Shown here: piece after piece, positions 20,931 to 33,972 of the stretch | Numbering within the stretch: position 1 is the stretch's first letter | How the letters are laid out: every line of letters starts with the position of its first letter | DNA from: Candidatus Bathyarchaeia archaeon | Lineage (GTDB): Archaea > Thermoproteota > Bathyarchaeia > 40CM-2-53-6 | Assembly (NCBI GenBank): GCA_049517415.1 | Contig: JBEKSC010000013.1 | Coordinates: 1-64,000 of the forward strand | Length of the DNA: 64,000 nucleotides | Direction: 5' to 3' | Translations under genes and position numbers: made by a program | The notes under the pieces: generated by a model | Seen by the model: only the letters and a program-made list of their open reading frames with translations | The model's database searches: none | What the model was told of the DNA's origin: nothing

Positions 20931-21440
20931 TCAAGGCTCCTTTATTTCGATTCCCAATTCGTCATAAATTGCGTCTGATTTTTCGAGTATGTCGACGTCG
21001 AAGGTTACGAAGGCGTCTATATCGTGCCCCCACTTACGGAGCCCGTCGGCGTACGCTAGGTGGACTAGGTCAAGCGTTTTGAGTTTGAGTGCGTGTGCGA
21101 GGCGGATACAATTGTGGTATTCAATGGGGACTGATAGAACGACCCCTGCCACCTTGATTCTTGATTGAGCTGGGACAGATGCAAGGAAGAAACCGGAATC
21201 TCGGATCATAAATTCCACAAGTGTTCTCACACGCCTTCTTGGGGGTTCTTGAAGCAATTCCGGTGGAGCCTCCATGTTGGAATCTATCCTGGAGATGACT
21301 GCGGCCAATTCGATTAGCGATACTGGGGAAGCTATCTTTCGGTCTATACTCTCCAGAAATGCTGTTGCCCTGCTGCTTAGTTTGTCAGTAGGGATGTATT
21401 TTGCGAGGATGACGTTCGTGTCGACATACGCCATCATCAT
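20931..21440 (-). CDS. vapC: PIN-domain VapC toxin
   Basis: YVDTNV, ELAAV, LDLVHLA, FVTFD. Confidence 0.9.
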   Translation of the reverse strand: MMMAYVDTNVILAKYIPTDKLSSRATAFLESIDRKIASPVSLIELAAVISRIDSNMEAPPELLQEPPRRRVRTLVEFMIRDSGFFLASVPAQSRIKVAGVVLSVPIEYHNCIRLAHALKLKTLDLVHLAYADGLRKWGHDIDAFVTFDVDILEKSDAIYDELGIEIKEP

Positions 21441-21694
21441 TTCCTGCCCTCGGCGACGATTTCGAGAATGCTCCTCGTGGTTTTGAATGAGAGTGGGGTC
21501 TTTCCGGTTTTTCTCAGAGCAAGCAATTTGTTTACTAACCGTGTAACGTCTTCGTCTTGTCCCAATTTTTCCTTGAGGCCTTCAGCTAGTATCGCTCTGA
21601 TAGCCTCGTTACGGCTTCGGTATGCTCCACGCTTTAGAAGTATGTTCAACTTGCGGACTTCATCATCGTCGAGCCTCACGGGTACTACAGTCAA
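21437..21694 (-). CDS. Ribbon-helix-helix antitoxin
   Basis: VVPVRL...G.YRSRNEAIR RHH pattern; overlaps the vapC start. Confidence 0.85.
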   Translation of the reverse strand: MTVVPVRLDDDEVRKLNILLKRGAYRSRNEAIRAILAEGLKEKLGQDEDVTRLVNKLLALRKTGKTPLSFKTTRSILEIVAEGRK

Positions 21695-23690: not shown

Positions 23691-23940
23691 GAATTTTCGA
23701 GTTAAGCAAAACGGAGTCCGTATGCGTATTCCGGTTACGTACTTGCAACGATAGGGTGCTGCATATCGAGGCCTAAGCTCGCTGTAACCGGACTCTGAAC
23801 CCAAACGTCACATAGACAACCAGGCATGTGATTTCTAGAACCGCATCTTAACGTCAATGAGCCCTCGCGATTAGTCAAGCTCCGTAAGCAACTGATCGTG
23901 AATAACGGACGCGGCCGATTTCAGTCCGTGACATTGTGAG
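23691..23940. repeat. ~250-bp non-coding direct repeat, copy 1
   Basis: Aligns by eye with 24087-24336, with long identical blocks such as TCTTAACGTCAATGAGCCCTCGCGATTAGTCAAGCTCCGTAAGCAACTGATCGTGAATAACGGACGCGG. Confidence 0.95.
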
Positions 23941-24086: not shown

Positions 24087-24336
24087 GAACTTTCGACTCA
24101 AGCAAAACGGAGTCCGTATGCGTATTCGGGTTACGTAGTTGAATGGATAACGATGAGGCCGCAAATCGAGGCCTAAGCTCCCTGTAACCGGACTATGAAC
24201 CCAAACGTCACATAGACAACTAACTAATTTCTAGAACCGCGTCTTAACGTCAATGAGCCCTCGCGATTAGTCAAGCTCCGTAAGCAACTGATCGTGAATA
24301 ACGGACGCGGCTGATTTCAGTCCGTGGCATTGTGAG
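24087..24336. repeat. ~250-bp non-coding direct repeat, copy 2
   Basis: Second copy of 23691-23940. Confidence 0.95.
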
Positions 24337-24536: not shown

Positions 24537-24655
24537 GCCGGGGTTCCCGAGCCTGGTACGGGGCAGATCCACCTGAGCCTAAGCCTGGAATCAACGGAAC
24601 CGCAAGCCTGTGGTCCTTACGGGCCTCGAGGGTTCAAATCCCTCTCCCGGCGCCA
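24537..24655 (+). tRNA. tRNA-Ser(GGA) with two introns (24567-24582 at 29/30; 24591-24604 at 37/38), CCA encoded
   Basis: Acceptor GCCGGGG/TCCCGGC, D-stem CCCG/CGGG, spliced anticodon arm CAGGC-CTGGAAA-GCCTG, long variable arm GGTCC/GGGCC, T-arm GAGGG-TTCAAAT-CCCTC, G73; TTAAAT box at 24505-24510. Confidence 0.88.
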
Positions 24656-24715
24656 TTCCGAACCCTCTAGTTCACTTTGTGACACGAGGTACTGATCGAT
24701 GCGTCTAGACCCATC
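24639..24715 (+). repeat. att-like direct repeat (left)
   Basis: 72/77 identical to 31237-31313, first 43 bp exact (hand count). Confidence 0.95.
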
Positions 24716-24899
24716 GAGCCGATCCTAGTATCCTCATTTGAGAAGCCTTTCGGACATCTCCGGCGCCTTGGCGACGTTGAAGTTCACTATCCCTCCTCTG
24801 TAGGATCGCTCGTGAGGAGAAGGATGATTTTTGCATTGCAATTATCAACACACGAGCGTTAAATAACGCGGCAGCTCCCATGGGCTTGTAAACCAACGA

Positions 24900-25868
24900 G
24901 TGCAAGTAATTTTGAAGAGTTGGATGAGGGGAGCCAACAAAGTTCTCAAAGTCTGTGCTTCCGTTAAGAGGGGCGAAAGAACCCTCATTCTTACCGACCC
25001 AGGCATTGACCCTATGGTCCCGATATCGCTAGTACAAGCAGCTACCGAGGTTGGGTCAGAAGCAATAGTTGCCACATTGGTTAGACACTCAGCGAATGAT
25101 GAACCGCCTCGCAGAGTGGTCAACCTGATGCTCAATTCGGATGTGATACTTTCTACAACCTCTGTTACAATGTTCTACACGAACGCAAAGCGAAAAGCGT
25201 GTGAAAGAGGTGCGAGATTCTTATCGATGACTGGAACCACCCTAGATGTATTGAGCTCTGGCGCAATAGAAGCAGACTTCCTTAAGCAGAAACCGCTAGT
25301 TGAAAGATTGGCCAAGAGATTGACCGCCGCGAAAAACATTTCTATTCGAACCGCTGCGGGCACTAATGTTGTTGCAAGTGTGAAAGGACGCAGAGCCATC
25401 CCTAACACGGGCATATGCAGGAAACCCGGAGATTCAAGCGGTGTACCTGACATTGAGGTGTACGTTGCACCGGTGGAGGAAACTGTGGAAGGAACGGCAG
25501 TTATTGACGGTACTATTTCTGGAATAGGTCTCTTGCGGTCGCCCGTGAAGCTGAAGATTCATGGGGGGAAGGTAAGGAGTATCGTTGGAGGCCCAGAAGC
25601 AAGGATGTTAAGAAAAATAGTTCGAAGCCAGAATGATGAGAAGGTCTACCAAATTGCTGAGATTGGCATTGGGCTTAACCCGAAGGCGATACTCTGCGGC
25701 GCAATAATTGAAGATGAATCGGCTCTTGGAACAGCTCACTTGGCTCTAGGAGACAATTCTAAGTTCGGTGGCAGGAACCCCGCGTCTACGCATATCGATA
25801 ACGTGTTCAAACGGCCCCTGATAGAGTTGGATGGCGAAAGGCTTCAACTACCAGCCCGGATAGTTTGA
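24900..25868 (+). CDS. M29-like (aminopeptidase T/leucyl aminopeptidase-like) metallopeptidase
   Basis: PDIEVYVAP, IDGT, AEIGIGLNP, EDES, HLALGDN, THID. Confidence 0.85.
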   Translation: MQVILKSWMRGANKVLKVCASVKRGERTLILTDPGIDPMVPISLVQAATEVGSEAIVATLVRHSANDEPPRRVVNLMLNSDVILSTTSVTMFYTNAKRKACERGARFLSMTGTTLDVLSSGAIEADFLKQKPLVERLAKRLTAAKNISIRTAAGTNVVASVKGRRAIPNTGICRKPGDSSGVPDIEVYVAPVEETVEGTAVIDGTISGIGLLRSPVKLKIHGGKVRSIVGGPEARMLRKIVRSQNDEKVYQIAEIGIGLNPKAILCGAIIEDESALGTAHLALGDNSKFGGRNPASTHIDNVFKRPLIELDGERLQLPARIV

Positions 25869-27613
25869 AGGTAGAGCTCTTCTTGAGCGAATTCGCGACA
25901 GAATTTAGAAACGTGTCCTTCACATACACGGACAGCAAAGAGCCCGCTCTAAAAGACATAAACCTTAGAATCAAAGAGGGTGAGCTAGTGCTTATCACTG
26001 GCCCCAGCGGCGCTGGCAAGACTACTCTCTGCTGTTGCATTAACGGTTTGGTCCCTTACTTCTATACAGGAGAGCTGACCGGAAACGTTATCGTAAATGG
26101 CCTAGACACGAAAAATCAGACTATAGGCACTCTTTCCACAAAAGTGGGACTACTATTCCAAGACCCGGCCAGTCAGTTGGTATCACCAACAGTGGTGGAC
26201 GAACTAGCATTTGGACCTGAGAACCTAGGTATTGCCAAAGAAGAGATCGGGAAACGAATAGAATACTCACTAGACGCCATGCGACTACGTCCGTACGTTG
26301 ACAGAAACCCCGCCACGCTCTCCGGAGGTGAACAGCAAGCCTGTGCATTAGGCGCATTAGCCGCTATGCGTCCAGAAATATACGTGCTCGATGAACCTAC
26401 CTCAAACCTTGACCCAATCGGCAGCAGTACGGTTCTCTCAGCGATTACAGAACTTGCTAGAGCAGAAAAGAAGACGATGATCATTGTCGAACACAAGATC
26501 GAAGAACTCACAGATATGGTTGATACGATGCTGGTCATGGATCAAGGACGCATAATCATGAGTGGAGAACCCAGACAGGTTCTCAAAGAGACAGAACTTC
26601 TCGAGCAGGTGGGACTGAAGGCTCCCCCAGCGGCGGTCGTGTGCAATAAGTTAGCGGCCAAATTCGGAGTAGAGTTGGGCGTACCATTGACGGTGGACGA
26701 GGGTTATGAGAAGATTAACAATTTCCTAAACGGGAAAATAGTGCGACCGTTCTCCTCGTTTCGAGAGAAGCAATCAATTAGCAATCCGAAAACGGAAACC
26801 CCAATTGTCGAAGCTGATGGGCTCTGGCACACCTACCCCGGGAACGTTGAAGCACTCAAGGATGTAGACCTCCGTGTAGGACGGGGTGATTTCCTGGCCA
26901 TCGTCGGCCAGAACGGTTCAGGCAAGACTACTCTGGTGAAGCACTTTAATGGCCTTCTAAGGCCCACGAGAGGAACTGTTCTCATAGATGGCGAGGACAC
27001 TAAGCATCAGACCACTGCTCAACTGTCACGGAAGGTTGGCATGGTCTTTCAGAACCCTGACCGGCAGTTGCTTAAGTTCAAGGTCATCGAAGAGGTCAAG
27101 TTTGGCCCAAAGAATCTCGGGTTCTCTGAAGATGAATGCAACGCGCGTGCAACCGCGGTGCTCCAAGCTGTGGGACTCGAGCACGTTACGGAAAGGGATC
27201 CTCATGAGCTAGGGAAGGGTGAGAAGCAGAGGGTGGTCCTTGCTTGTGCGCTAGCAATGAAACCTGAGGTCCTTGTGATAGATGAACCGACGACAGGTCA
27301 GGATTACAAGAGGTCGAGGGAGATTATGGATCTCGCAGTGAGGCTAAACAAAGAAGGCTCAACGATTATTGTAATAACCCACGATATGAGCCTAGTGGCA
27401 GAATACGCCAAGAGGACGATCCTCATGCACCAAGGACAAATACTGTATGACGGCCCTCCGCGAGAAGCATTCACGAAAACCGAACTTTTGAAACGCAGCT
27501 TTCTGAGTCCGCCACAAGCGACCATACTGGGAATGCGACTGCGCAACTATGTCCCGTACACAGTCCTGACTACGGATGAACTGGTGGATGCTCTGACAAG
27601 GACGGTGACATGA
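25865..27613 (+). CDS. ecfA: ECF transporter ATPase, fused A-A'
   Basis: Two Walker A motifs (GPSGAGKT, GQNGSGKT), FQDP/FQNP, LSGGEQQ, DEPT twice. Confidence 0.92.
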   Translation: MKVELFLSEFATEFRNVSFTYTDSKEPALKDINLRIKEGELVLITGPSGAGKTTLCCCINGLVPYFYTGELTGNVIVNGLDTKNQTIGTLSTKVGLLFQDPASQLVSPTVVDELAFGPENLGIAKEEIGKRIEYSLDAMRLRPYVDRNPATLSGGEQQACALGALAAMRPEIYVLDEPTSNLDPIGSSTVLSAITELARAEKKTMIIVEHKIEELTDMVDTMLVMDQGRIIMSGEPRQVLKETELLEQVGLKAPPAAVVCNKLAAKFGVELGVPLTVDEGYEKINNFLNGKIVRPFSSFREKQSISNPKTETPIVEADGLWHTYPGNVEALKDVDLRVGRGDFLAIVGQNGSGKTTLVKHFNGLLRPTRGTVLIDGEDTKHQTTAQLSRKVGMVFQNPDRQLLKFKVIEEVKFGPKNLGFSEDECNARATAVLQAVGLEHVTERDPHELGKGEKQRVVLACALAMKPEVLVIDEPTTGQDYKRSREIMDLAVRLNKEGSTIIVITHDMSLVAEYAKRTILMHQGQILYDGPPREAFTKTELLKRSFLSPPQATILGMRLRNYVPYTVLTTDELVDALTRTVT

Positions 27614-27614
27614 A

Positions 27615-28454
27615 TTGTCACTCGATTATGTACCTGGAACATCGTTCTTTCATCGGCTGGATCCTAGGACGAAATTTCTCTTCTTCATACTCGCCTTCAT
27701 AATCTCTGAAGCGTTCGACGACCCGTTCCTGTTGGCTCTTGAGTTCGTGGTGATCTTCCTCATAGGTTGGCTGGCTGGGATTCCTAACTCGAAGATCGGG
27801 GGGCTCTTCAAGAATATGATTCCAGTCTTCATCATGCTCTACGTGTTGAATGTTATCTGGTGGAGTCCTCCTCGGGCCAACGTGCTCTTCTACTTGCTTC
27901 CAGCTCAGAAGTGGCTCCCGTTCTCGTATGAAGCGATGGTCTACTCTGCCGGAGTCATCCTGAGATTCGCAAACGTCCTGATTGCGCTATGGGTAATAAT
28001 GCTGACAACACCGATTAGCCGCTTCGTTTTGGGTTTCGTCAAATGGCATCTGCCACCAAGCATCGCGATGGGTATTGGGATAGGACTCGCGTCTGTTCCC
28101 ATGCTGTCGCAAGAGATAGGGATGGTTATGGATGCCATGAAGGCAAGGGCATGGGAAGTAGAATATAGAAACCCTGTCAAGAGGATACGAGCATACATTC
28201 CTTTGTTCGTGCCCATACTGTACCAAACGATTACACGAGCAGAGAACATTGCGGTTGCAATCGAGTCCCGCGCATTCGGACATGACATCTCAAGACGCAC
28301 ATACTATAGAGAAGAAAGAATGCGCGATTCAGACTACCTGGTGTTGGTTCTCGGTATAGCCGTCACGGTATTCTCCCTAGTCATTGGTTCGTACGGACTC
28401 GGATACGGAGCGTACGACTTCGTCTACAGGATGATACTTGGATTCGTCAAGTGA
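27615..28454 (+). CDS. ecfT: ECF transporter T component
   Basis: HRLDPRTK N-terminus, KARA and ESRAF Arg motifs. Confidence 0.92.
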   Translation: MSLDYVPGTSFFHRLDPRTKFLFFILAFIISEAFDDPFLLALEFVVIFLIGWLAGIPNSKIGGLFKNMIPVFIMLYVLNVIWWSPPRANVLFYLLPAQKWLPFSYEAMVYSAGVILRFANVLIALWVIMLTTPISRFVLGFVKWHLPPSIAMGIGIGLASVPMLSQEIGMVMDAMKARAWEVEYRNPVKRIRAYIPLFVPILYQTITRAENIAVAIESRAFGHDISRRTYYREERMRDSDYLVLVLGIAVTVFSLVIGSYGLGYGAYDFVYRMILGFVK

Positions 28455-28533
28455 AGTGCAGTAAGGTCACGTACATAGAGTAAGTAGTCAACCATTAAAT
28501 CAAAATCAAACGACGTGACATCGGTGAAAACGA

Positions 28534-29106
28534 GTGACCGCAAAACCAGACCAGACCAACCAACCAAAGAAATCATTTTGGTATCTCTCTTCAATACAGA
28601 TCGGGCTTGCTGCAGCATTCGGCGCCGCTGCTTTGGCAATCGTGCTTGGCGGATTGATGTTTCCCCTAGGTCCTGGCGGACTTGTCGTCGATCCTAGAAT
28701 GCCATTTGCGTTCGTGGGTGCAGCACTTACAGGACCAATCGGTGCAATCATTGTCGGATTCCTCGCGGGAGTGGGGCGTATCCCTGTCTTCAACATTCCA
28801 TTCCACGTGATAGGAGAAGTAGTATTCTTCGGCATCGGATACAAATACGTCTACAAGTGGACTAAAGGCGACCTCAAGAAAATAATCCTTGGATTCAACC
28901 TTCTTACATTACCCTACTACTTCCTCTGGGAAACAATCTATTGGCCAGTTGTAGTAGCAAACTTCATGACAAAGAACCCGAGCATGGTTATCCCGTTGTA
29001 TTTCTCATATCTGCCGGGCATGATGGTAGAGATGGTCGCAGCAATGGTCATCCAGTCAGTCATACTCACCGTGCTTCCCGCGAAATACAGACGCCCACAA
29101 TGGTAA
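28534..29106 (+). CDS. ECF transporter S component, substrate unknown
   Basis: 190-aa hydrophobic protein with GP..G..VG motif, next to ecfAT. Confidence 0.8.
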   Translation: MTAKPDQTNQPKKSFWYLSSIQIGLAAAFGAAALAIVLGGLMFPLGPGGLVVDPRMPFAFVGAALTGPIGAIIVGFLAGVGRIPVFNIPFHVIGEVVFFGIGYKYVYKWTKGDLKKIILGFNLLTLPYYFLWETIYWPVVVANFMTKNPSMVIPLYFSYLPGMMVEMVAAMVIQSVILTVLPAKYRRPQW

Positions 29107-29346
29107 ACCAACGCCGTAACATCCTCCTTTTCCTCCTTTCTTAGTCCTGTAACGCATACGTAACGTTATGCCGAGGCCCTCCCGACTAGGACCAAATTAC
29201 TCGCAAAACGTTTGACGTCCGTTAATGTTCCTATCCATGATCTTGCTTGCGCCTCTCATCGAGCTTTGTGACATTGAACATCGATTTGTGTTGGGAGGTA
29301 GATGGCGATTTAATCGTACTATGTCTTCTTCCATAGATGATTCCGA

Positions 29347-30651
29347 CTATGACAAGAAGGCGGGTATTCTTTCTAACCTGAACACATCTTCGTAGCTCTC
29401 TCTTTCCCGAATTACATGCCCTACTCCTTCGTTCACCAACACCACTAATGGTCGCGGATAGCTGTTGTAATTGCTTGACATAGTGAATCCGTATGCCCCG
29501 ACATCCATAACCGCAAGAATGTCATCCTCTTCGAGGAATGGTAGCGTTCTATTCTTTCCAAGAACATCGCCCGACTCGCAACATGGTCCGCCAATGAAGT
29601 AATTCTCCTGTCCATTAGGTGAGTTCATCTTGTTGGCGACAGCGATACGGTGAAAGGCATCGTATAATGCAGGTCGAATTAGATGGTTCATACCAGAGTC
29701 CACTAAAGCCCAATTCGCAACAGGTGTTCTCTTCACAACTCCAACCTTCGTGAGAAGAATTCCTGCACTTGCCACCAGAGATCTTCCAAGCTCCAAGATG
29801 AGTGTGAGCTCTGACGCGCGGTTGGATTCTTGACGTAACCTAGTTGCAATCGTGTCTGCGAACTCATCAAAAAACGGGATTGTCTCATTTCCGGTGTAGG
29901 AAATCCCTATTCCGCCTCCCAAGTTCATGACTCTAATCTCGATCCCGAACTTGTCCAATAGTTCATCAGAAAGATCGAGCAATACTCTGCAGGCTTCGTC
30001 AAACGGCCGAACATCGAGTATTTCCGAACCCAAGTGAACATGCAATCCGTCAATCTCAATCATATCTTGATTTGATGCAAATTCGAATACACTAGGCATT
30101 GAGTCTATTGAGACACCAAACTTGTGTTGGCTCATCGCCGTGGAGAGATGAGGATGCGTTTCAACAGGAATGTTAGGGTTCACACGCATACCGATTCTGG
30201 CTTTTATCCCCAAGCCTTTCGCAATGACCTGCACCTTCTTTATCTCACTGGGCGAATCGACGTTTATCATCACTCTCGACTTGATTGCAGTCTCCAGTTC
30301 TGCAATCGATTTGTTTGGGCCATCGAAGACTATTCGATCCGGGGGGACACCGACTTTGAGTGCTGCATACAATTCTCCTCCAGAAGCTACTTCCGCGCCT
30401 GCTCCCAGGTCAGTGAGCATTTTGCAGATTGCTAGATGTGAATTCGCCTTGTACGCATAACAGATTGTAGTCCGCTTGTGACGTGTAGTCATAGCCTCGT
30501 GGATTGCAATCCAGTTTCTCTTGACAGTTCCCGCGTCCATAACGTACAGAGGAGTACCGAACTTGCGTGTTAACTCAATCGTGTCGACCCCGCCCCAGTG
30601 CAAATGATTCTCCATCGAATGGGCCTCGGTATTAGATTGCGTCGCTATCAT
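29347..30651 (-). CDS. lysA: Diaminopimelate decarboxylase
   Basis: GTPLYV, YAYKAN, HVHLGS, ELGR, CESGD, GAYG..MSSNYN. Confidence 0.9.
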   Translation of the reverse strand: MIATQSNTEAHSMENHLHWGGVDTIELTRKFGTPLYVMDAGTVKRNWIAIHEAMTTRHKRTTICYAYKANSHLAICKMLTDLGAGAEVASGGELYAALKVGVPPDRIVFDGPNKSIAELETAIKSRVMINVDSPSEIKKVQVIAKGLGIKARIGMRVNPNIPVETHPHLSTAMSQHKFGVSIDSMPSVFEFASNQDMIEIDGLHVHLGSEILDVRPFDEACRVLLDLSDELLDKFGIEIRVMNLGGGIGISYTGNETIPFFDEFADTIATRLRQESNRASELTLILELGRSLVASAGILLTKVGVVKRTPVANWALVDSGMNHLIRPALYDAFHRIAVANKMNSPNGQENYFIGGPCCESGDVLGKNRTLPFLEEDDILAVMDVGAYGFTMSSNYNSYPRPLVVLVNEGVGHVIRERESYEDVFRLERIPAFLS

Positions 30652-31236
30652 CCCAATGGGATTCCACTCTTACAAATTGTTCTCTATATGTCGGATTAGT
30701 TCTCTTTTGTATGGAAGTATTGCTGCGGTTCCTCCGGTGTGAAGAAAGAGAGCCCTTCGGCTCCACTATGTAGGATGGCGGTGTGTCCTCCAGACATTAG
30801 AAATATCAGCGAACAAAGGTCATAGAGTAGAAACGCTCTCGCATCGTCTGCTATGATTCGGGCTGGCGTGGTCGCCTCCACCATTTTTGTCATGCCCAAG
30901 TTCAAGAGTATGATGCGTGAAATGTAGATACATTGAAATTTATGGAGCAGGAAAACGAGAGTAATGAAATCGCTCAGAAACGAGCCGATTTGCGAGAAAC
31001 TCACCGCACAGGTGTGGGGGGGGGTTCCTCCCGCCCCACCAAGTGTTGTTGAAGCAGAAGGGTCAGATTCACCCTGTCTATCCAAATACGAAAGGCTCCT
31101 GGTGGGCCCATTGTGTAACAAGTTTGCATTTGTCATATGCATCAGCGCATACCTCTTTCATGCTGTTTTATCATGGTTTTTCATATGCTAGAACATCCAC
31201 GTGCAGTGATTCACGGCGCTTAACATTCAATGCAGC

Positions 31237-31313
31237 TCCCTCTCCCGGCGCCATTCCGAACCCTCTAGTTCACTTTGTGGCACGGGGTACTGGTCAGTGC
31301 GTCTAGACCCATC
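31237..31313 (+). repeat. att-like direct repeat (right; displaced tRNA 3' end)
   Basis: TCCCTCTCCCGGCGCCATTCCGAACCCTCTAGTTCACTTTGTG identical to 24639-24681. Confidence 0.95.
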
Positions 31314-31449
31314 TAGTGTGCAATTCCTTCATCTTGCCGAGATGCGGGTCGTTAGAGAAGCAGCTTGCCTTCAGTTGCAGTGCCGTTGTCGCGATAACGG
31401 CATCAGCAATCGATCGCGTGTCAAACAGGACGCGCTTTCTACCGCTCAT
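31303..31449 (-). pseudogene. vapC: VapC with in-frame internal deletion (48 aa)
   Basis: MSGRKRVLFDTR-SIADAVIATTALQLKASCFSNDPHL...RWV: PIN N- and C-terminal motifs joined, middle absent. Confidence 0.8.
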
Positions 31450-31663
31450 TTTCCGCTCTCATTTTGTCCAACCGTGAGAAGATGTCATGTTGTGATGCCT
31501 TCCCAGTCCCAACCATGTCGATTGTCGAGACCATTTTCTTTAACAACAACCCTTCACCGGTATCCTCAATTTCCAAGGTCGTACCCTCTTCAATCCCGTA
31601 TTTCTTCCTGAACTCAGCTGGGATCATAGTTTGACCTCTTCCGGTTACACTCACGGTCACCAT
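31439..31663 (-). CDS. AbrB/MazE/SpoVT-family antitoxin
   Basis: VTGRGQTMIPAEFRKKYGIEEG; ATG at 31663. Confidence 0.9.
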   Translation of the reverse strand: MVTVSVTGRGQTMIPAEFRKKYGIEEGTTLEIEDTGEGLLLKKMVSTIDMVGTGKASQHDIFSRLDKMRAENER

Positions 31664-31922
31664 ACGAACATCAAAACTCCTACTTCTTAGAATCCTATTA
31701 AGCGTCGTCTTCGGATCGAAGGTAGATATTTTCTGTATTCGATTACCTCTCAATTTGTATGTCATACGTTCTCTCCATAGCAATCCCATCGTTAGCGACC
31801 GGTGAACGCGCAGATGCGCTCTCACATGAAAGCAGAAATTGCACGGGCGCAGTACGGATGTGCGATGTCGATTGGTTACTCCACGGCAAGGTATTTCAAG
31901 AAGCGATTCTCGGCATCGAGAT

Positions 31923-33365
31923 TTGCCACCAGACCTCTTCATAAAATACAGTCATCAGACGGCCGATTGGATCGCTCACTACCTAGAAAACATGAACGAC
32001 TATCCCGTACTGTCCCGCACAAAACCCGGCGAAATCAAATCACGCATACCAAAATCCCCACCTGAAAAACCAGAACCCTTCGAGAATGTGCTAAGTGATT
32101 TTCAAAAGGTCATCTTGCCCGGAATTACTCATTGGAACCATCCCCGATTTTTCGCGTATTTCTCAATCACAGGGTCCTACCCTGGAATCATCGGCGAATT
32201 GTTGTCAAGCGCTTTGAACGTGAACGCGATGCTCTGGAAGGCCTCTCCCTCTGCCACTGAACTCGAGGAAGTGGTGTTGGGTTGGCTGCGGCAGATGGTT
32301 GGCCTTCCGAAGCAGTTTGAGGGTGTGATAAACGATACAGCTTCCGTTGGCAGCATGTGCGCGATGGCTGCGGCGCGAGAGGCCATAGACCTGCGAGTCC
32401 GCGAGAAGGGGCTGGCCGGTAGAAGGGAGCTTCCTCAACTACGCGCCTACAGCTCTGAGGAAGCCCATTCATCCATCGAGAAAGCCGCCATTGTCCTAGG
32501 CTTCGGGCAGGAGGGTATTCGGAAGATTTCGACCGACGAAGCATTTCGGATGGATGTTCATGCTTTAGAGGAGGCTGTCAAATCGGACCTCGATGCGGGC
32601 ATAAAGCCGGTCTGTGTTATTGCAACGATTGGAACCACTTCAACTACGAGCGTCGACCCAGTGATGGAGATTGCCGAGGTTTGCAAGAAATATGGGATCT
32701 GGCTTCACGTTGACGCCGCTTATGGAGGCTCCGCAGCCATCTTACCCGAGATGCGTCCTCAATTTGCCGGCTGGGAGAATGCTGATTCCATAATCATTAA
32801 TCCCCATAAGTGGCTGTTCACGCCGATCGATTGCAGCGTCCTCTATTGCAAGCGCCCCGACGTCCTCAAACAGGCTTTCAGTCTGACCCCTGAATACCTT
32901 CGCACGACAGGAACTGGCGAAGAGAAGAATATGATGGATTATGGCATAAGCTTAGGCCGGCGGTTCCGCGCACTCAAACTATGGATGGTCATTCGTTCCC
33001 TGGGATGCGAGGGCATTGCGAACGCCATAAAAGACCACATTGCCTACGCCCGAAGACTCGCGGAGCTAATTGAGCGCCACCCAGACTTTCAGATGTTGGC
33101 CCCGGTTCCTTTCAGCACCCTAGTATTCCGATTCTCCCCCAAGAACCTGCCAAGTAAGCCTCCCTCAGACTCGGAACTTAACGACCTCAACGAAAAACTG
33201 TTGGAAGCAGTGAACGAAACAGGCAGAGTATTTCTCTCGCACACGAAACTCAGGGGAAAATTCGGAATCCGATTGGCGATAGGTAATCTGAAGACCAGCT
33301 GGGAAGATGTTTCAGAGGCTTGGGATGTGGTTCAGCAGAAGGCTGCAGAACTCTCACAGCCATGA
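31923..33365 (+). CDS. Group II PLP-dependent (aromatic-L-amino-acid-type) decarboxylase
   Basis: PGITHWNHPRFFAYF, SPSATELE, HSSIEKA, HVDAAYGG, NPHKW, GRRFRALKLW; start uncertain (ORF open from 31839). Confidence 0.9.
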   Translation: MPPDLFIKYSHQTADWIAHYLENMNDYPVLSRTKPGEIKSRIPKSPPEKPEPFENVLSDFQKVILPGITHWNHPRFFAYFSITGSYPGIIGELLSSALNVNAMLWKASPSATELEEVVLGWLRQMVGLPKQFEGVINDTASVGSMCAMAAAREAIDLRVREKGLAGRRELPQLRAYSSEEAHSSIEKAAIVLGFGQEGIRKISTDEAFRMDVHALEEAVKSDLDAGIKPVCVIATIGTTSTTSVDPVMEIAEVCKKYGIWLHVDAAYGGSAAILPEMRPQFAGWENADSIIINPHKWLFTPIDCSVLYCKRPDVLKQAFSLTPEYLRTTGTGEEKNMMDYGISLGRRFRALKLWMVIRSLGCEGIANAIKDHIAYARRLAELIERHPDFQMLAPVPFSTLVFRFSPKNLPSKPPSDSELNDLNEKLLEAVNETGRVFLSHTKLRGKFGIRLAIGNLKTSWEDVSEAWDVVQQKAAELSQP

Positions 33366-33456: not shown

Positions 33457-33972
33457 ATGTCGAGAGAGTTCAGGCAAATCCTCCGCGTTGCAGGCACTAA
33501 CGTAGACGGGACGAAGAAGTTGGCTTACGGCCTCTTGCACATCAAGGGTGTAGGGCCAAGCTATGCCATTGCAATAGTTCGCGCTGCGGAGCTCCGGCCA
33601 GAGTCGAGGTTTGGCGATCTTTCTGAGGGTGAGGTCCAGAAACTGGAGGACGTGATGAAGGACCCTGCGAAGTACGGGCTGCCTTCACGGCTTTTCAATA
33701 GAAGAAAAAGTCTTGACAGCGGCCGCGACGTGCATTTGATCGGCGCGGACCTGGCGTTGAGCATTAAGACTGATGTCGATTTCATGACGGATATTCGGAG
33801 TTGGAAGGGCATTAGGCACTCCTTGGGCCTGAAGGTTCGCGGACAACATACGAGGACGACGGGCCGGAAGGGTAGGGCGGTCGGTGTGGCAAAGAAAGTT
33901 GTTATGGAAGCTGCTAGGGCAGCTATGGCCGCTGAGAGGAAGGGCGAGGAAACGAAGGAAGAAAAGAAGTAA
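33457..33972 (+). CDS. rps13: 30S ribosomal protein S13
   Basis: GIRHSLGLKVRGQHTRTTGR. Confidence 0.97.
   Translation: MSREFRQILRVAGTNVDGTKKLAYGLLHIKGVGPSYAIAIVRAAELRPESRFGDLSEGEVQKLEDVMKDPAKYGLPSRLFNRRKSLDSGRDVHLIGADLALSIKTDVDFMTDIRSWKGIRHSLGLKVRGQHTRTTGRKGRAVGVAKKVVMEAARAAMAAERKGEETKEEKK

What the first reader, a model, noticed from the sequence alone, without database searches (positions are those of the whole stretch)
24900..30651. Island cargo peptidase + ECF transporter + stand-alone LysA: candidate diaminopimelate/peptide salvage system
Seen: the only intact cargo genes of the island are an M29-like peptidase, a complete dedicated ECF module (fused ATPase, T, unclassified S component) and a convergent lysA. 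No other dap genes lie in the window. Known: ECF importers mostly carry vitamins and metals; meso-DAP is a component of bacterial peptidoglycan; many TACK archaea make lysine through the LysW/aminoadipate route. Inference: this may be a mobile module that imports DAP or DAP-containing peptides from bacterial debris, cleaves them and decarboxylates DAP to lysine, which would be a new ECF substrate class.
Basis: partly seen in the sequence, partly recalled or inferred. Interest (0 to 1): 0.75.

Follow-up and report, generated by a model that had tools for sequence, protein, structure and literature searches.

The report
Archaeal peptide-scavenging islet with orphan LysA
A small inserted DNA segment gives an archaeon that seems unable to make lysine an importer of a type normally used for vitamins, a peptide-cutting enzyme and the last enzyme of lysine synthesis, which suggests that it scavenges small peptides and turns a bacterial cell-wall amino acid into lysine, although what the importer carries is still unknown.

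Summary
A 6.6-kb islet is inserted at a two-intron tRNA-Ser between 80-nt direct repeats, and two relatives lack it at that site. It carries a short M29/NicX-family hydrolase, a complete ECF module and an intact-site LysA. No DapB, DapF, Ddh, LysX or homocitrate synthase was found in the near-complete genome, so lysine salvage from outside meso-DAP is plausible. Related orphan LysAs recur beside peptidases (S66, M55, M20) and ABC importers in relatives lacking DapB. The S protein folds as an ECF S component of an unnamed family; its ECF-linked members sit beside amide/peptide hydrolases of many folds, and the domain also heads histidine kinases. The DAP-specific importer claim is not supported: no other S-family locus examined has lysA. 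Gene remnants indicate that lysA came as a dcyD-lysA pair within a larger cassette (D-cysteine-desulfhydrase-like lyase, class V aminotransferase), which points also to sulfur diamino acids such as lanthionine. Best reading: a decayed scavenging cassette with an ECF for amino-acid amides or short peptides plus an orphan salvage LysA. Substrates are untested. The scan's notes held no earlier finding of this.

The parts
24537..24655 (+). tRNA-Ser(GGA) with two introns (24567-24582 and 24591-24604); the integration target
   Evidence: ARAGORN gives an 89-nt tRNA-Ser(GGA) after removal of both introns, while the raw sequence with one intron allowed gives a distorted Leu(CAA) call; matches in 105 of 105 genomes of the order
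24639..24718 (+). left att repeat (tRNA 3' end plus about 63 nt)
   Evidence: 80-nt direct repeat, 93% identical to 31237-31316
24737..24820 (-). remnant of a class V aminotransferase / SufS-like gene, divergent from the M29 gene
   Evidence: blastx 61% over 28 aa, E 4e-5, to the AT-V of the genome's C14 cassette and 62% over 26 aa to the AT-V beside an S-family ECF in G057; no Pfam hit on its own
24900..25868 (+). short M29/NicX-family metallo-hydrolase (322 aa; probable start 24912) with the two-metal ligand set E186, E254, E273, H280, H298, D300 and no catalytic Tyr
   Evidence: PF02073 25.5 bits, below the cut-off of 27; PF26233 NicX on close relatives; PDB hits NicX, PepS, AmpS, AmpT; the six ligands are invariant in 43 of 43 homologs, with Asn286 where AmpT has Tyr352
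25865..27613 (+). fused ECF ATPase (A-A')
   Evidence: TIGR04520 481.6 bits and TIGR04521 480.5 bits, both over cut-off; two ABC domains
27615..28454 (+). EcfT
   Evidence: PF02361 E 2.5e-22
28534..29106 (+). ECF S component of an unnamed family
   Evidence: no Pfam or NCBIfam hit; AlphaFold2 pLDDT 94.3; 16 of the 17 best fold matches are S components, top ThiT Z 15.8, rmsd 3.6 over 168 residues; the family profile hits RibU at E 1.4e-7
29347..30651 (-). orphan diaminopimelate decarboxylase LysA (probable start 30615, 422 aa)
   Evidence: TIGR01048 468.5 bits against a cut-off of 297.9; best PDB hit 1twi at E 3e-99; K68, R156, H206, S209, E287, R290, R326, Y330, C358, E359 and Y387 present
30670..30756 (-). 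probable C-terminal remnant of a D-cysteine-desulfhydrase-like (DcyD/CuyA family) gene, ending 18 nt upstream of lysA
   Evidence: best hit of a DcyD profile in all six frames of the 64-kb window, E 0.008, next best 2.8; same position and strand as dcyD-lysA in G081, G082, G084, G086; weak on score alone
31237..31316 (+). right att repeat
   Evidence: the region after it resumes the gene order seen at the empty site in G043 and G051

Best explanation
The islet is the surviving part of a larger scavenging cassette, integrated at tRNA-Ser, from a gene pool that these archaea use for small peptides and modified amino acids. Shown: the anatomy, the ECF fold, the intact LysA site, the missing lysine routes and the neighbourhood patterns. 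Inferred step 1: the dedicated ECF takes up a scarce amino-acid amide or short peptide; the conserved Asp53, Arg55, His91 and Glu166 could hold a carboxylate and an amino group. Inferred step 2: the co-transcribed two-metal M29-type enzyme hydrolyses its amide bond. Inferred step 3: LysA, separately transcribed and originally part of a dcyD-lysA pair, converts meso-DAP from the environment (ultimately bacterial cell wall) to lysine for a host with no lysine route. DAP need not enter through this ECF. The lost DcyD-like lyase and class V aminotransferase suggest the full cassette also handled sulfur or thioether amino acids.
For: No DapB, DapF, Ddh, LysX over cut-off or homocitrate synthase over cut-off; DapL-operon proteins of relatives match only at 22-30%. 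LysA groups with non-operon LysAs (SH-aLRT 84-91) and apart from dap-operon LysAs (98-99). All 8 related genomes with such orphan LysAs lack DapB (completeness 69-100%). Their neighbours are an S66 LD-carboxypeptidase plus Opp-type ABC (G045), M20 plus Liv-type ABC (G057, G058), class III aminotransferase plus Opp (G054) and DcyD (G081, G082, G084, G086); a more distant one follows an M55 D-aminopeptidase (G679). Of 12 archaeal S-family regions fetched wide, the 10 with an ECF module all have an amide or peptide hydrolase (M24, M20, TldD, creatininase, amidohydrolase, class II GATase) and the 2 solitary S genes have none. Of 64 metagenome/genome loci, 14 have FmdA amidase and 5 a proline-iminopeptidase-like enzyme directly downstream. 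At equal 1.5-kb flanks, 7 of 21 S-family loci have such a hydrolase, against 0 clear cases (2 generic hydrolase fragments) in 30 control loci of PF12822 S genes, which sit by cobS/cobY, CTP synthase or purA. A second S-family ECF in this genome lies with M24, hydantoinase A/B, AT-V and M29. Remnants tie the islet to the AT-V/DcyD cassette.
Against: No substrate was measured. The window's S sub-clade has a long branch and only 3 known loci, one with useful flanks, and it differs from the family consensus at pocket-type positions (Met56 for Glu, Glu95, Ala170, Gln174), so family-wide neighbours may not transfer. Hydrolase queries were chosen from the same loci, the loci are related, and the control loci come from a few orthologous groups. 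15 of the 16 M29 homologs found in the order (this genome's C2 paralog included) show no LysA or ECF gene in their 1.5-kb flanks by inspection. Several near-complete genus members (G041, G043, G044, G046) lack DapB, LysX and LysA alike, so LysA is not required. The M29-type enzyme lacks the Tyr that is essential in LmAmpII (PMC7023490). A weak DapA-like aldolase exists on C22 (TIGR00674 215.5 bits, cut-off 206.15).
Confidence: 0.5

Rival explanations
1. One reading: one co-adapted module in which this ECF imports meso-DAP or DAP-containing murein peptides, the M29 enzyme frees DAP and LysA makes lysine.
For: All three genes were kept intact while the rest of the cassette decayed. The host lacks lysine routes. 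Peptidase + importer + orphan LysA recurs with other importers, once with an LD-carboxypeptidase. The best M29 match in the order (49%, G081) follows a LysA-family gene directly.
Against: lysA was found in 0 of 107 other S-family locus records. The closest S locus has DcyD and M24 instead. lysA is convergent and had its own upstream dcyD. The LysA-family gene beside M29 in G081 has an altered substrate site. No S66 or M55 was found in this genome.
Confidence: 0.15
2. The cassette targets sulfur diamino acids such as meso-lanthionine (or D-cystine and related thioethers). The ECF imports them or their peptides, the DcyD-like lyase cleaves the D-centre to free L-cysteine, and LysA handles both DAP and lanthionine.
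For: dcyD-lysA in 4 genomes of one genus, in G082 as dcyD-lysA-dapF-cysS-ridA. S-family ECF lies with CysK, DcyD, SufS-like AT-V, M24 and RidA in G057 and with DcyD and M24 in L023. The same set lies with an ABC importer and a LysA-like gene on C14. DAP has no beta leaving group, so a lyase needs another substrate (chemistry). D,L-lanthionine replaces DAP in Fusobacterium peptidoglycan (PMC11602996).
Against: The dcyD remnant is weak by score. The DcyD-like proteins pass no specific NCBIfam cut-off (top model: D-cysteate sulfo-lyase). The 4 dcyD-lysA genomes are one event. Lanthionine as a LysA substrate is recalled; my search found no paper on it.
Confidence: 0.15
3. The ECF imports a vitamin or cofactor precursor in amide-linked form (formylated, glutamylated or lysine-bound), which the hydrolase releases; lysA is an unrelated passenger.
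For: All solved fold matches are vitamin or metal S components. The nearest named ESM Atlas clusters are ThiW and riboflavin-type S. ECF importers usually carry compounds needed in small amounts (PMC3971661). M20 and creatininase-family deformylases act in thiamine and riboflavin metabolism (recalled; ArfB appears as a weak hit).
Against: No vitamin-pathway gene turned up among the annotated neighbours of ECF-linked S-family loci. The neighbours are amino-acid enzymes (Ord, RidA, AlaDH-like, CysK, DcyD, proline racemase-like, branched-chain aminotransferase-like), unlike the cobalamin context of the control S genes.
Confidence: 0.12
4. The three units are a chance leftover of deletions in a dead islet, with no joint function.
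For: No integrase, two eroded genes and no other locus with the full set. The genome has 14 M29-like and 3 LysA-like genes, so chance adjacency is easy.
Against: M29-A-T-S keeps its order in L023 at 67-84% identity. All five genes are intact with catalytic residues while their neighbours are eroded beyond most recognition.
Confidence: 0.08

Closest known systems
Group I (dedicated) ECF transporters; S components ThiT, FolT, RibU, PanT, BioY
   Same: Fused A-A', T and a six-helix S in one operon; same fold (Z 12-16); Ala-x-x-x-Ala in helix 1 (seen in the sequence; motif from PMC11109136)
   Different: The S matches no Pfam or NCBIfam family and is at most 18% identical to solved S components; its neighbours are amide/peptide hydrolases, not vitamin genes
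5TMR-LYT sensor domain of LytS/BtsS/YpdA kinases (PMC11109136)
   Same: The S-component fold is reused as a receptor: 48 of the 150 best family hits are 500 aa or longer, and the 13 scanned carry HAMP, PAS or kinase domains. Asp-Pro-Arg after helix 1 recalls the Asn-x-Arg motif; 3 of 17 short homologs scanned hit PF07694 weakly
   Different: Here transporter and kinase-fused forms are recognisably similar in sequence within one family, the window protein has no PF07694 hit, and it sits in an ECF operon
M29 aminopeptidases (AmpT, AmpS, PepS, LmAmpII) and NicX dioxygenase
   Same: Metal ligands align with AmpT E250, E316, E340 and H345 and with the His-x-Asp motif; the closest solved sequence is NicX
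   Different: About 320 aa instead of about 410; Asn in place of Tyr352; Glu where NicX-type paralogs have His. I found no characterised member of this short type
Diaminopimelate decarboxylase LysA (M. jannaschii 1twi) and DokD
   Same: PLP Lys, catalytic Cys and the distal-site Arg/Tyr/Glu are conserved; TIGR01048 over cut-off
   Different: No upstream dap pathway; far below the DokD cut-off (239 against 700); belongs to an orphan group tied to peptidases, importers or DcyD
Bacterial murein-peptide recycling (Opp/MppA, LdcA, MpaA) (recalled)
   Same: Importer plus peptidase recovering DAP from wall peptides; an S66 enzyme plus Opp lies beside orphan lysA in G045
   Different: Here the host is an archaeon, the importer is an ECF, and no S66 or M55 enzyme was found in this genome

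Membership tests
ECF transporter (group I) | Two ATPase domains and EcfT encoded with the S gene | tested here: met
   TIGR04520/04521 over cut-off; PF02361
ECF transporter (group I) | S component with the six-helix S fold | tested here: met
   pLDDT 94.3; ThiT Z 15.8, rmsd 3.6 over 168 residues; RibU by profile E 1.4e-7
Named S-component families (RibU, ThiT, ThiW, PanT, FolT, BioY, CbrT) | Match to the family profile | tested here: not met
   0 Pfam and 0 NCBIfam families at E 0.01; nearest Atlas clusters are hypothetical proteins
ECF transporter (group I) | High-affinity substrate binding and ATP-dependent uptake | not testable with these tools
   needs binding and transport assays
LysA diaminopimelate decarboxylase | TIGR01048 score and active-site residues | tested here: met
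   468.5 bits; residues. The cut-off alone is lax: two paralogs with altered sites also pass
LysA diaminopimelate decarboxylase | Decarboxylation of meso-DAP to L-lysine | not testable with these tools
   needs an assay or complementation
DAP biosynthetic pathway | DapA, DapB and DapF or Ddh in the genome | tested here: not met
   DapB, DapF and Ddh not found, while controls rang in 11, 9 and 8 of 14 genomes; one DapA-like protein just over cut-off but 25% identical to a relative's DapA
LysW/aminoadipate lysine pathway | LysX and homocitrate synthase | tested here: not met
   best LysX 108 bits against 275.6; best homocitrate synthase 337 against 413.55, scoring as isopropylmalate synthase; LysW itself was not searched
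M29 aminopeptidase | Metal ligands Glu, Glu, Glu, His, His, Asp | tested here: met
   that E340 is a ligand is recalled, the other five are in PMC7023490
M29 aminopeptidase | Catalytic Tyr352 of the EEHYHD motif | tested here: not met
   Asn286 in 43 of 43; Y352A is inactive in LmAmpII; the alignment here is by motif, not by structure
NicX-type Fe(II) dioxygenase | His at the position of the second Glu, no second-metal ligands | tested here: not met
   The window protein has Glu254; 7 paralogs in the genome have His there
tRNA-integrated genomic island | Duplicated tRNA 3' end and an empty site in relatives | tested here: met
tRNA-integrated genomic island | Own integrase or an excised form | tested here: not met
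   no PF00589 match on this contig; no joint listed in 3 runs of contigs, which cannot show rare excision

The most novel reading that the evidence does not exclude
An unnamed ECF S-component family of sediment and peat archaea and Anaerolineae imports amino-acid amides, short peptides or cross-link diamino acids (meso-DAP, lanthionine) instead of vitamins, always paired with a swappable amide hydrolase, and the same domain serves as the input of membrane histidine kinases. With an orphan LysA clade, lysine-auxotrophic archaea would make lysine from bacterial cell-wall debris; this islet would be a mobile version that joins both.
Probability: 0.3. Interest if true: 0.8.

Novelty: new variant of a known kind. 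Interest (0 to 1): 0.55.

Why it matters
Solved ECF S components bind vitamins or metals. A family whose dedicated modules keep pairing with unrelated amide hydrolases gives concrete candidates for peptide or amino-acid-amide uptake by ECFs. Its kinase-fused members allow transporter and receptor forms of one sequence family to be compared. Orphan LysA beside LD-carboxypeptidase or D-aminopeptidase genes in genomes without a DAP route gives a simple test of whether these archaea draw lysine from bacterial necromass. It also warns against scoring lysA hits as lysine biosynthesis.

Tried and rejected
ARAGORN and Rfam missed the tRNA; my first reading of it as tRNA-Leu was dropped. Pfam and NCBIfam named nothing for S. 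No genome with a LysA of the window's closest clade (63-72% identical, P0160-P0166) turned up in 401 class or 401 phylum genomes sampled, so their neighbourhoods are unknown. No RNA holder was listed, which says nothing on expression. One of 4 runs laid had no cover. The promoter scan is sigma-70-type and was not used. The LysA tree is the quick tree, because the careful search did not finish; the S and M29 trees are quick trees with long branches. Paper searches: ECF/S-component/amino acid/peptide/archaea (52, 10 papers, none naming this family in the listing); Bathyarchaeia/DAP/lysine/peptidoglycan (59, none of the 20 listed of 575 mention Bathyarchaeia); DAP decarboxylase/salvage/peptidoglycan/lysine auxotroph; M29/NicX/AmpT (66, 5); D-amino acid terms; TrpP/MtsT (70, 2 unrelated); lanthionine with DAP decarboxylase (87, 4, listing only); archaea/peptidoglycan/necromass; ECF with Trp/Met/queuosine (105, 0). 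The library lacks most subscription papers and I read no supplements, so these blanks do not show novelty. Look-ups in the scan's notes by S sequence, LysA sequence and words gave nothing.


Full report
Observation. An 80-nt direct repeat at 24639-24718 and 31237-31316 (93%) bounds them. Its left copy begins inside a tRNA that ARAGORN and Rfam missed. With two short introns removed it is a clean tRNA-Ser(GGA), and it has matches in 105 of 105 genomes of the order. In G043 and G051 (2 of 19 tRNA loci examined) the tRNA is followed within about 1.3 kb by genes that lie beyond the right repeat here, so the cargo is an insertion. It has no integrase. Single contigs span the cargo at flank depth in 3 of 4 runs laid; the holders are peat and wetland metagenomes and may be the genome's source. 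The label Bathyarchaeia comes from an earlier scan note and was not tested; archaeal ribosomal and RNA polymerase genes follow at 33457 onward (recognised from memory).

Lysine routes. The genome is rated 100% complete and 6.86% contaminated. DapF, DapB and Ddh were not found. LysX and homocitrate synthase stay far below cut-off and score as a RimK-type ligase and as isopropylmalate or citramalate synthases. Relatives' DapB and DapF gave no tblastn hit, DapL gave 22-30% and DapA 25%. One C22 aldolase just passes TIGR00674. So lysA is an orphan and the host is probably a lysine auxotroph. Two more LysA-family genes exist (C14, C3), both beside racemases and ABC importers and both with altered distal sites, while the islet LysA keeps R326, Y330, C358 and E359. 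Passages of PMC12599289 name the equivalent Ser, Tyr, Cys and Glu as DAP contacts.

Orphan LysAs. 33 of 105 genomes of the order have a LysA match. In a quick tree of 84 rows the dap-operon LysAs form one clade (support 98-99) and the islet LysA falls in a weaker group (84-91) with non-operon LysAs. Eight other genomes carry these. G081, G082, G084 and G086 have dcyD-lysA, with dapF, cysS and ridA following in G082. G057 and G058 have M20 and a Liv-type ABC, G045 an S66 LD-carboxypeptidase and an Opp-type ABC, and G054 a class III aminotransferase and Opp. None of the 8 has DapB (completeness 69-100%). Of the 4 in this genus, 3 also lack LysX over cut-off and G054 has two. A more distant LysA follows an M55 D-aminopeptidase (G679). 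This recurring pairing with peptidases and importers is the best support for salvage. Against a vital role, several near-complete genus members lack DapB, LysX and LysA together.

The S component. It folds with pLDDT 94.3 and its best matches are ECF S components, led by ThiT (Z 15.8, rmsd 3.6, 168 residues); a family profile hits RibU. The family has 185 representatives at E 0.001. Of the best 150, 48 are 500 aa or longer, and the 13 I scanned are HAMP, PAS or kinase proteins. That mirrors the published link between S components and 5TMR kinases (PMC11109136; abstract, outline and passages). Conserved polar residues among 70 aligned sequences are Asp53 (63), Arg55 (54), His91 (58), Tyr128 and Tyr129 (52, 58) and Glu166 (59). 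The window's sub-clade differs at Met56, Glu95, Ala170 and Gln174. That these residues line the pocket and hold an amino acid is inference; I could not inspect the model's pocket.

S neighbourhoods. lysA was found in 0 of 107 locus records (646 kb, redundant, median 3.5 kb; the self loci L021 and L022 were left out) and in 0 of 86. The closest relative with flanks (84%, L023) reads M29-A-T-S-dcyD-M24. Of 12 archaeal regions fetched wide (of 21 non-self hits), the 10 with an ECF module all have an amide or peptide hydrolase and the 2 solitary genes do not; the ECF flag on L153 is a different ABC ATPase. Among 64 loci have FmdA amidase after EcfT and 5 a proline-iminopeptidase-like gene after S; most of the rest are too short to tell, and 4 lie beside kinases. 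At equal 1.5-kb flanks the count is 7 of 21, against no clear case in 30 control PF12822 loci, which are mostly cobalamin-salvage, CTP synthase or purA contexts. These loci are related, and the queries came from the loci themselves, so this is a pattern and not a statistic. A distant family member on C3 of this genome lies with M24, ECF, hydantoinase A/B, AT-V and M29.

The hydrolase. It belongs to the short NicX/M29 group (PF26233), of which this genome has 14. It keeps six ligands that align with AmpT and PepS, invariant in 43 of 43 homologs, but has Asn where AmpT has Tyr352, a residue essential in LmAmpII (PMC7023490, passages). It is therefore most likely a two-metal amide hydrolase and not a NicX-type dioxygenase; its substrate is open. 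Its best match in the order (49%, G081) follows a LysA-family gene of the altered C14 type; the other 15 loci show no such link.

Remnants. A 28-codon piece at 24737-24820 (-) matches the AT-V of the C14 cassette and of the ECF-S cassette of G057 (E 4e-5 and 8e-5). A 22-codon piece ending 18 nt before lysA is the best DcyD-profile hit in the whole window (E 0.008, next 2.8), at the place where the nearest placed relatives have dcyD. The islet is thus a deletion product of a larger cassette: AT-V, M29, ECF, S, and a dcyD-lysA pair. G057 has CysK, DcyD, AT-V, M24, ECF-S, RidA and an AlaDH-like gene; C14 here has a similar set with ABC importers. A beta-lyase cannot act on DAP, which points to a second substrate such as lanthionine, the DAP analogue of Fusobacterium walls (PMC11602996, passages), or to D-cysteine or D-cysteate.

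Mechanism and rivals. Most likely (0.5) the ECF imports a scarce amino-acid amide or short peptide, the M29-type enzyme cuts it, and LysA independently salvages lysine from outside meso-DAP. The single DAP module (0.15), a lanthionine or sulfur-amino-acid cassette (0.15), a vitamin-conjugate importer (0.12) and a chance leftover (0.08) remain. ECF importers are described as mostly for vitamins and metal chelates (PMC3971661, passages); predicted Trp and Met-precursor S components are recalled and were not seen in my searches. An orphan lysA beside the aminoadipate route is listed for Deinococcus (bioRxiv 2021.12.28.474397, two passages). A survey of D-amino-acid genes had no mention of lysA, diaminopimelate or Bathyarchaeia in its main text (PMC12363236, passages). 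I read no supplements; gene tables there could bear on novelty.

Verdict. Every part belongs to a known superfamily, but the S family is unnamed, and its tie to amide hydrolases and kinases, together with the orphan LysA group, did not appear in the searches named above. New variant of a known kind; interest 0.55.

Noticed in passing
window 24537-24655 (+): tRNA-Ser(GGA) with a 16-nt intron in the anticodon stem and a 14-nt intron in the loop; missed by ARAGORN and Rfam, and called Leu(CAA) if only one intron is allowed
   Followed up: partly
G000 C14:49381-50751 (L002) and G081 C78:2-1111 (L256): A LysA-family pair, 69% identical to each other, that passes the lysA cut-off but has a changed substrate site (Arg-Ala-Ser-Gln for Arg-Pro-Ala-x-Tyr, Tyr for Glu); probably a decarboxylase for another D-amino acid
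   Followed up: partly
G000 C14:42500-67600 (L164, L165): About 25 kb with two racemases, two DcyD-like lyases, AstE/DoeB-like, two M24, AT-V, creatininase, a CysK-like gene, a NicX-like gene and ABC importers; looks like a cluster for damaged or D-amino acids
   Followed up: partly
G000 C3:58402-59814 (L003): Third LysA-like gene, nearer DokD (287 bits, cut-off 700), between a Liv-type ABC importer and a racemase
   Followed up: no
G000, 14 places: Large expansion of short M29/NicX-family genes; of 13 aligned, 6 keep the Glu-type site and 7 have a NicX-like His site
   Followed up: partly
P0016, P0017, P0024 and 45 more: The S-family domain heads HAMP/PAS histidine kinases; in L032, L049, L050 and L075 a stand-alone S-like gene lies next to a kinase gene
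   Followed up: partly
G082 C2 (L162:5652-10621): dcyD-lysA-dapF-cysS-ridA in one direction in a genome (73% complete) where DapB was not found
   Followed up: partly
window 23691-23940 and 24087-24336: Tandem duplication with 396-nt spacing (88%) just upstream of the tRNA, with a short match on C43; unexplained
   Followed up: no
window 30949-31030: A stretch with a GC-rich hairpin inside the islet that also lies on another contig in two runs; possibly a small repeat or the end of a mobile element
   Followed up: no
window 31839-33365 (+), 31439-31942 (-), 20931-21694 (-): Outside the islet: a group II PLP decarboxylase also found after the tRNA in G043, an AbrB/MazE-type gene with no partner seen, and a PIN plus ribbon-helix-helix pair
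   Followed up: no
P0249 with P0213, P0270 with P0184: Two M29 and LysA homolog pairs share the same longest-contig length (12654 and 4752), a weak hint that they lie on one contig; chance could give this among about 2,700 pairs
   Followed up: no
L016-L020 (G059-G062): Solitary S-family genes without an ECF module lie between pyrD and a LeuA/homocitrate-synthase-like gene fused to an AsnC domain
   Followed up: no
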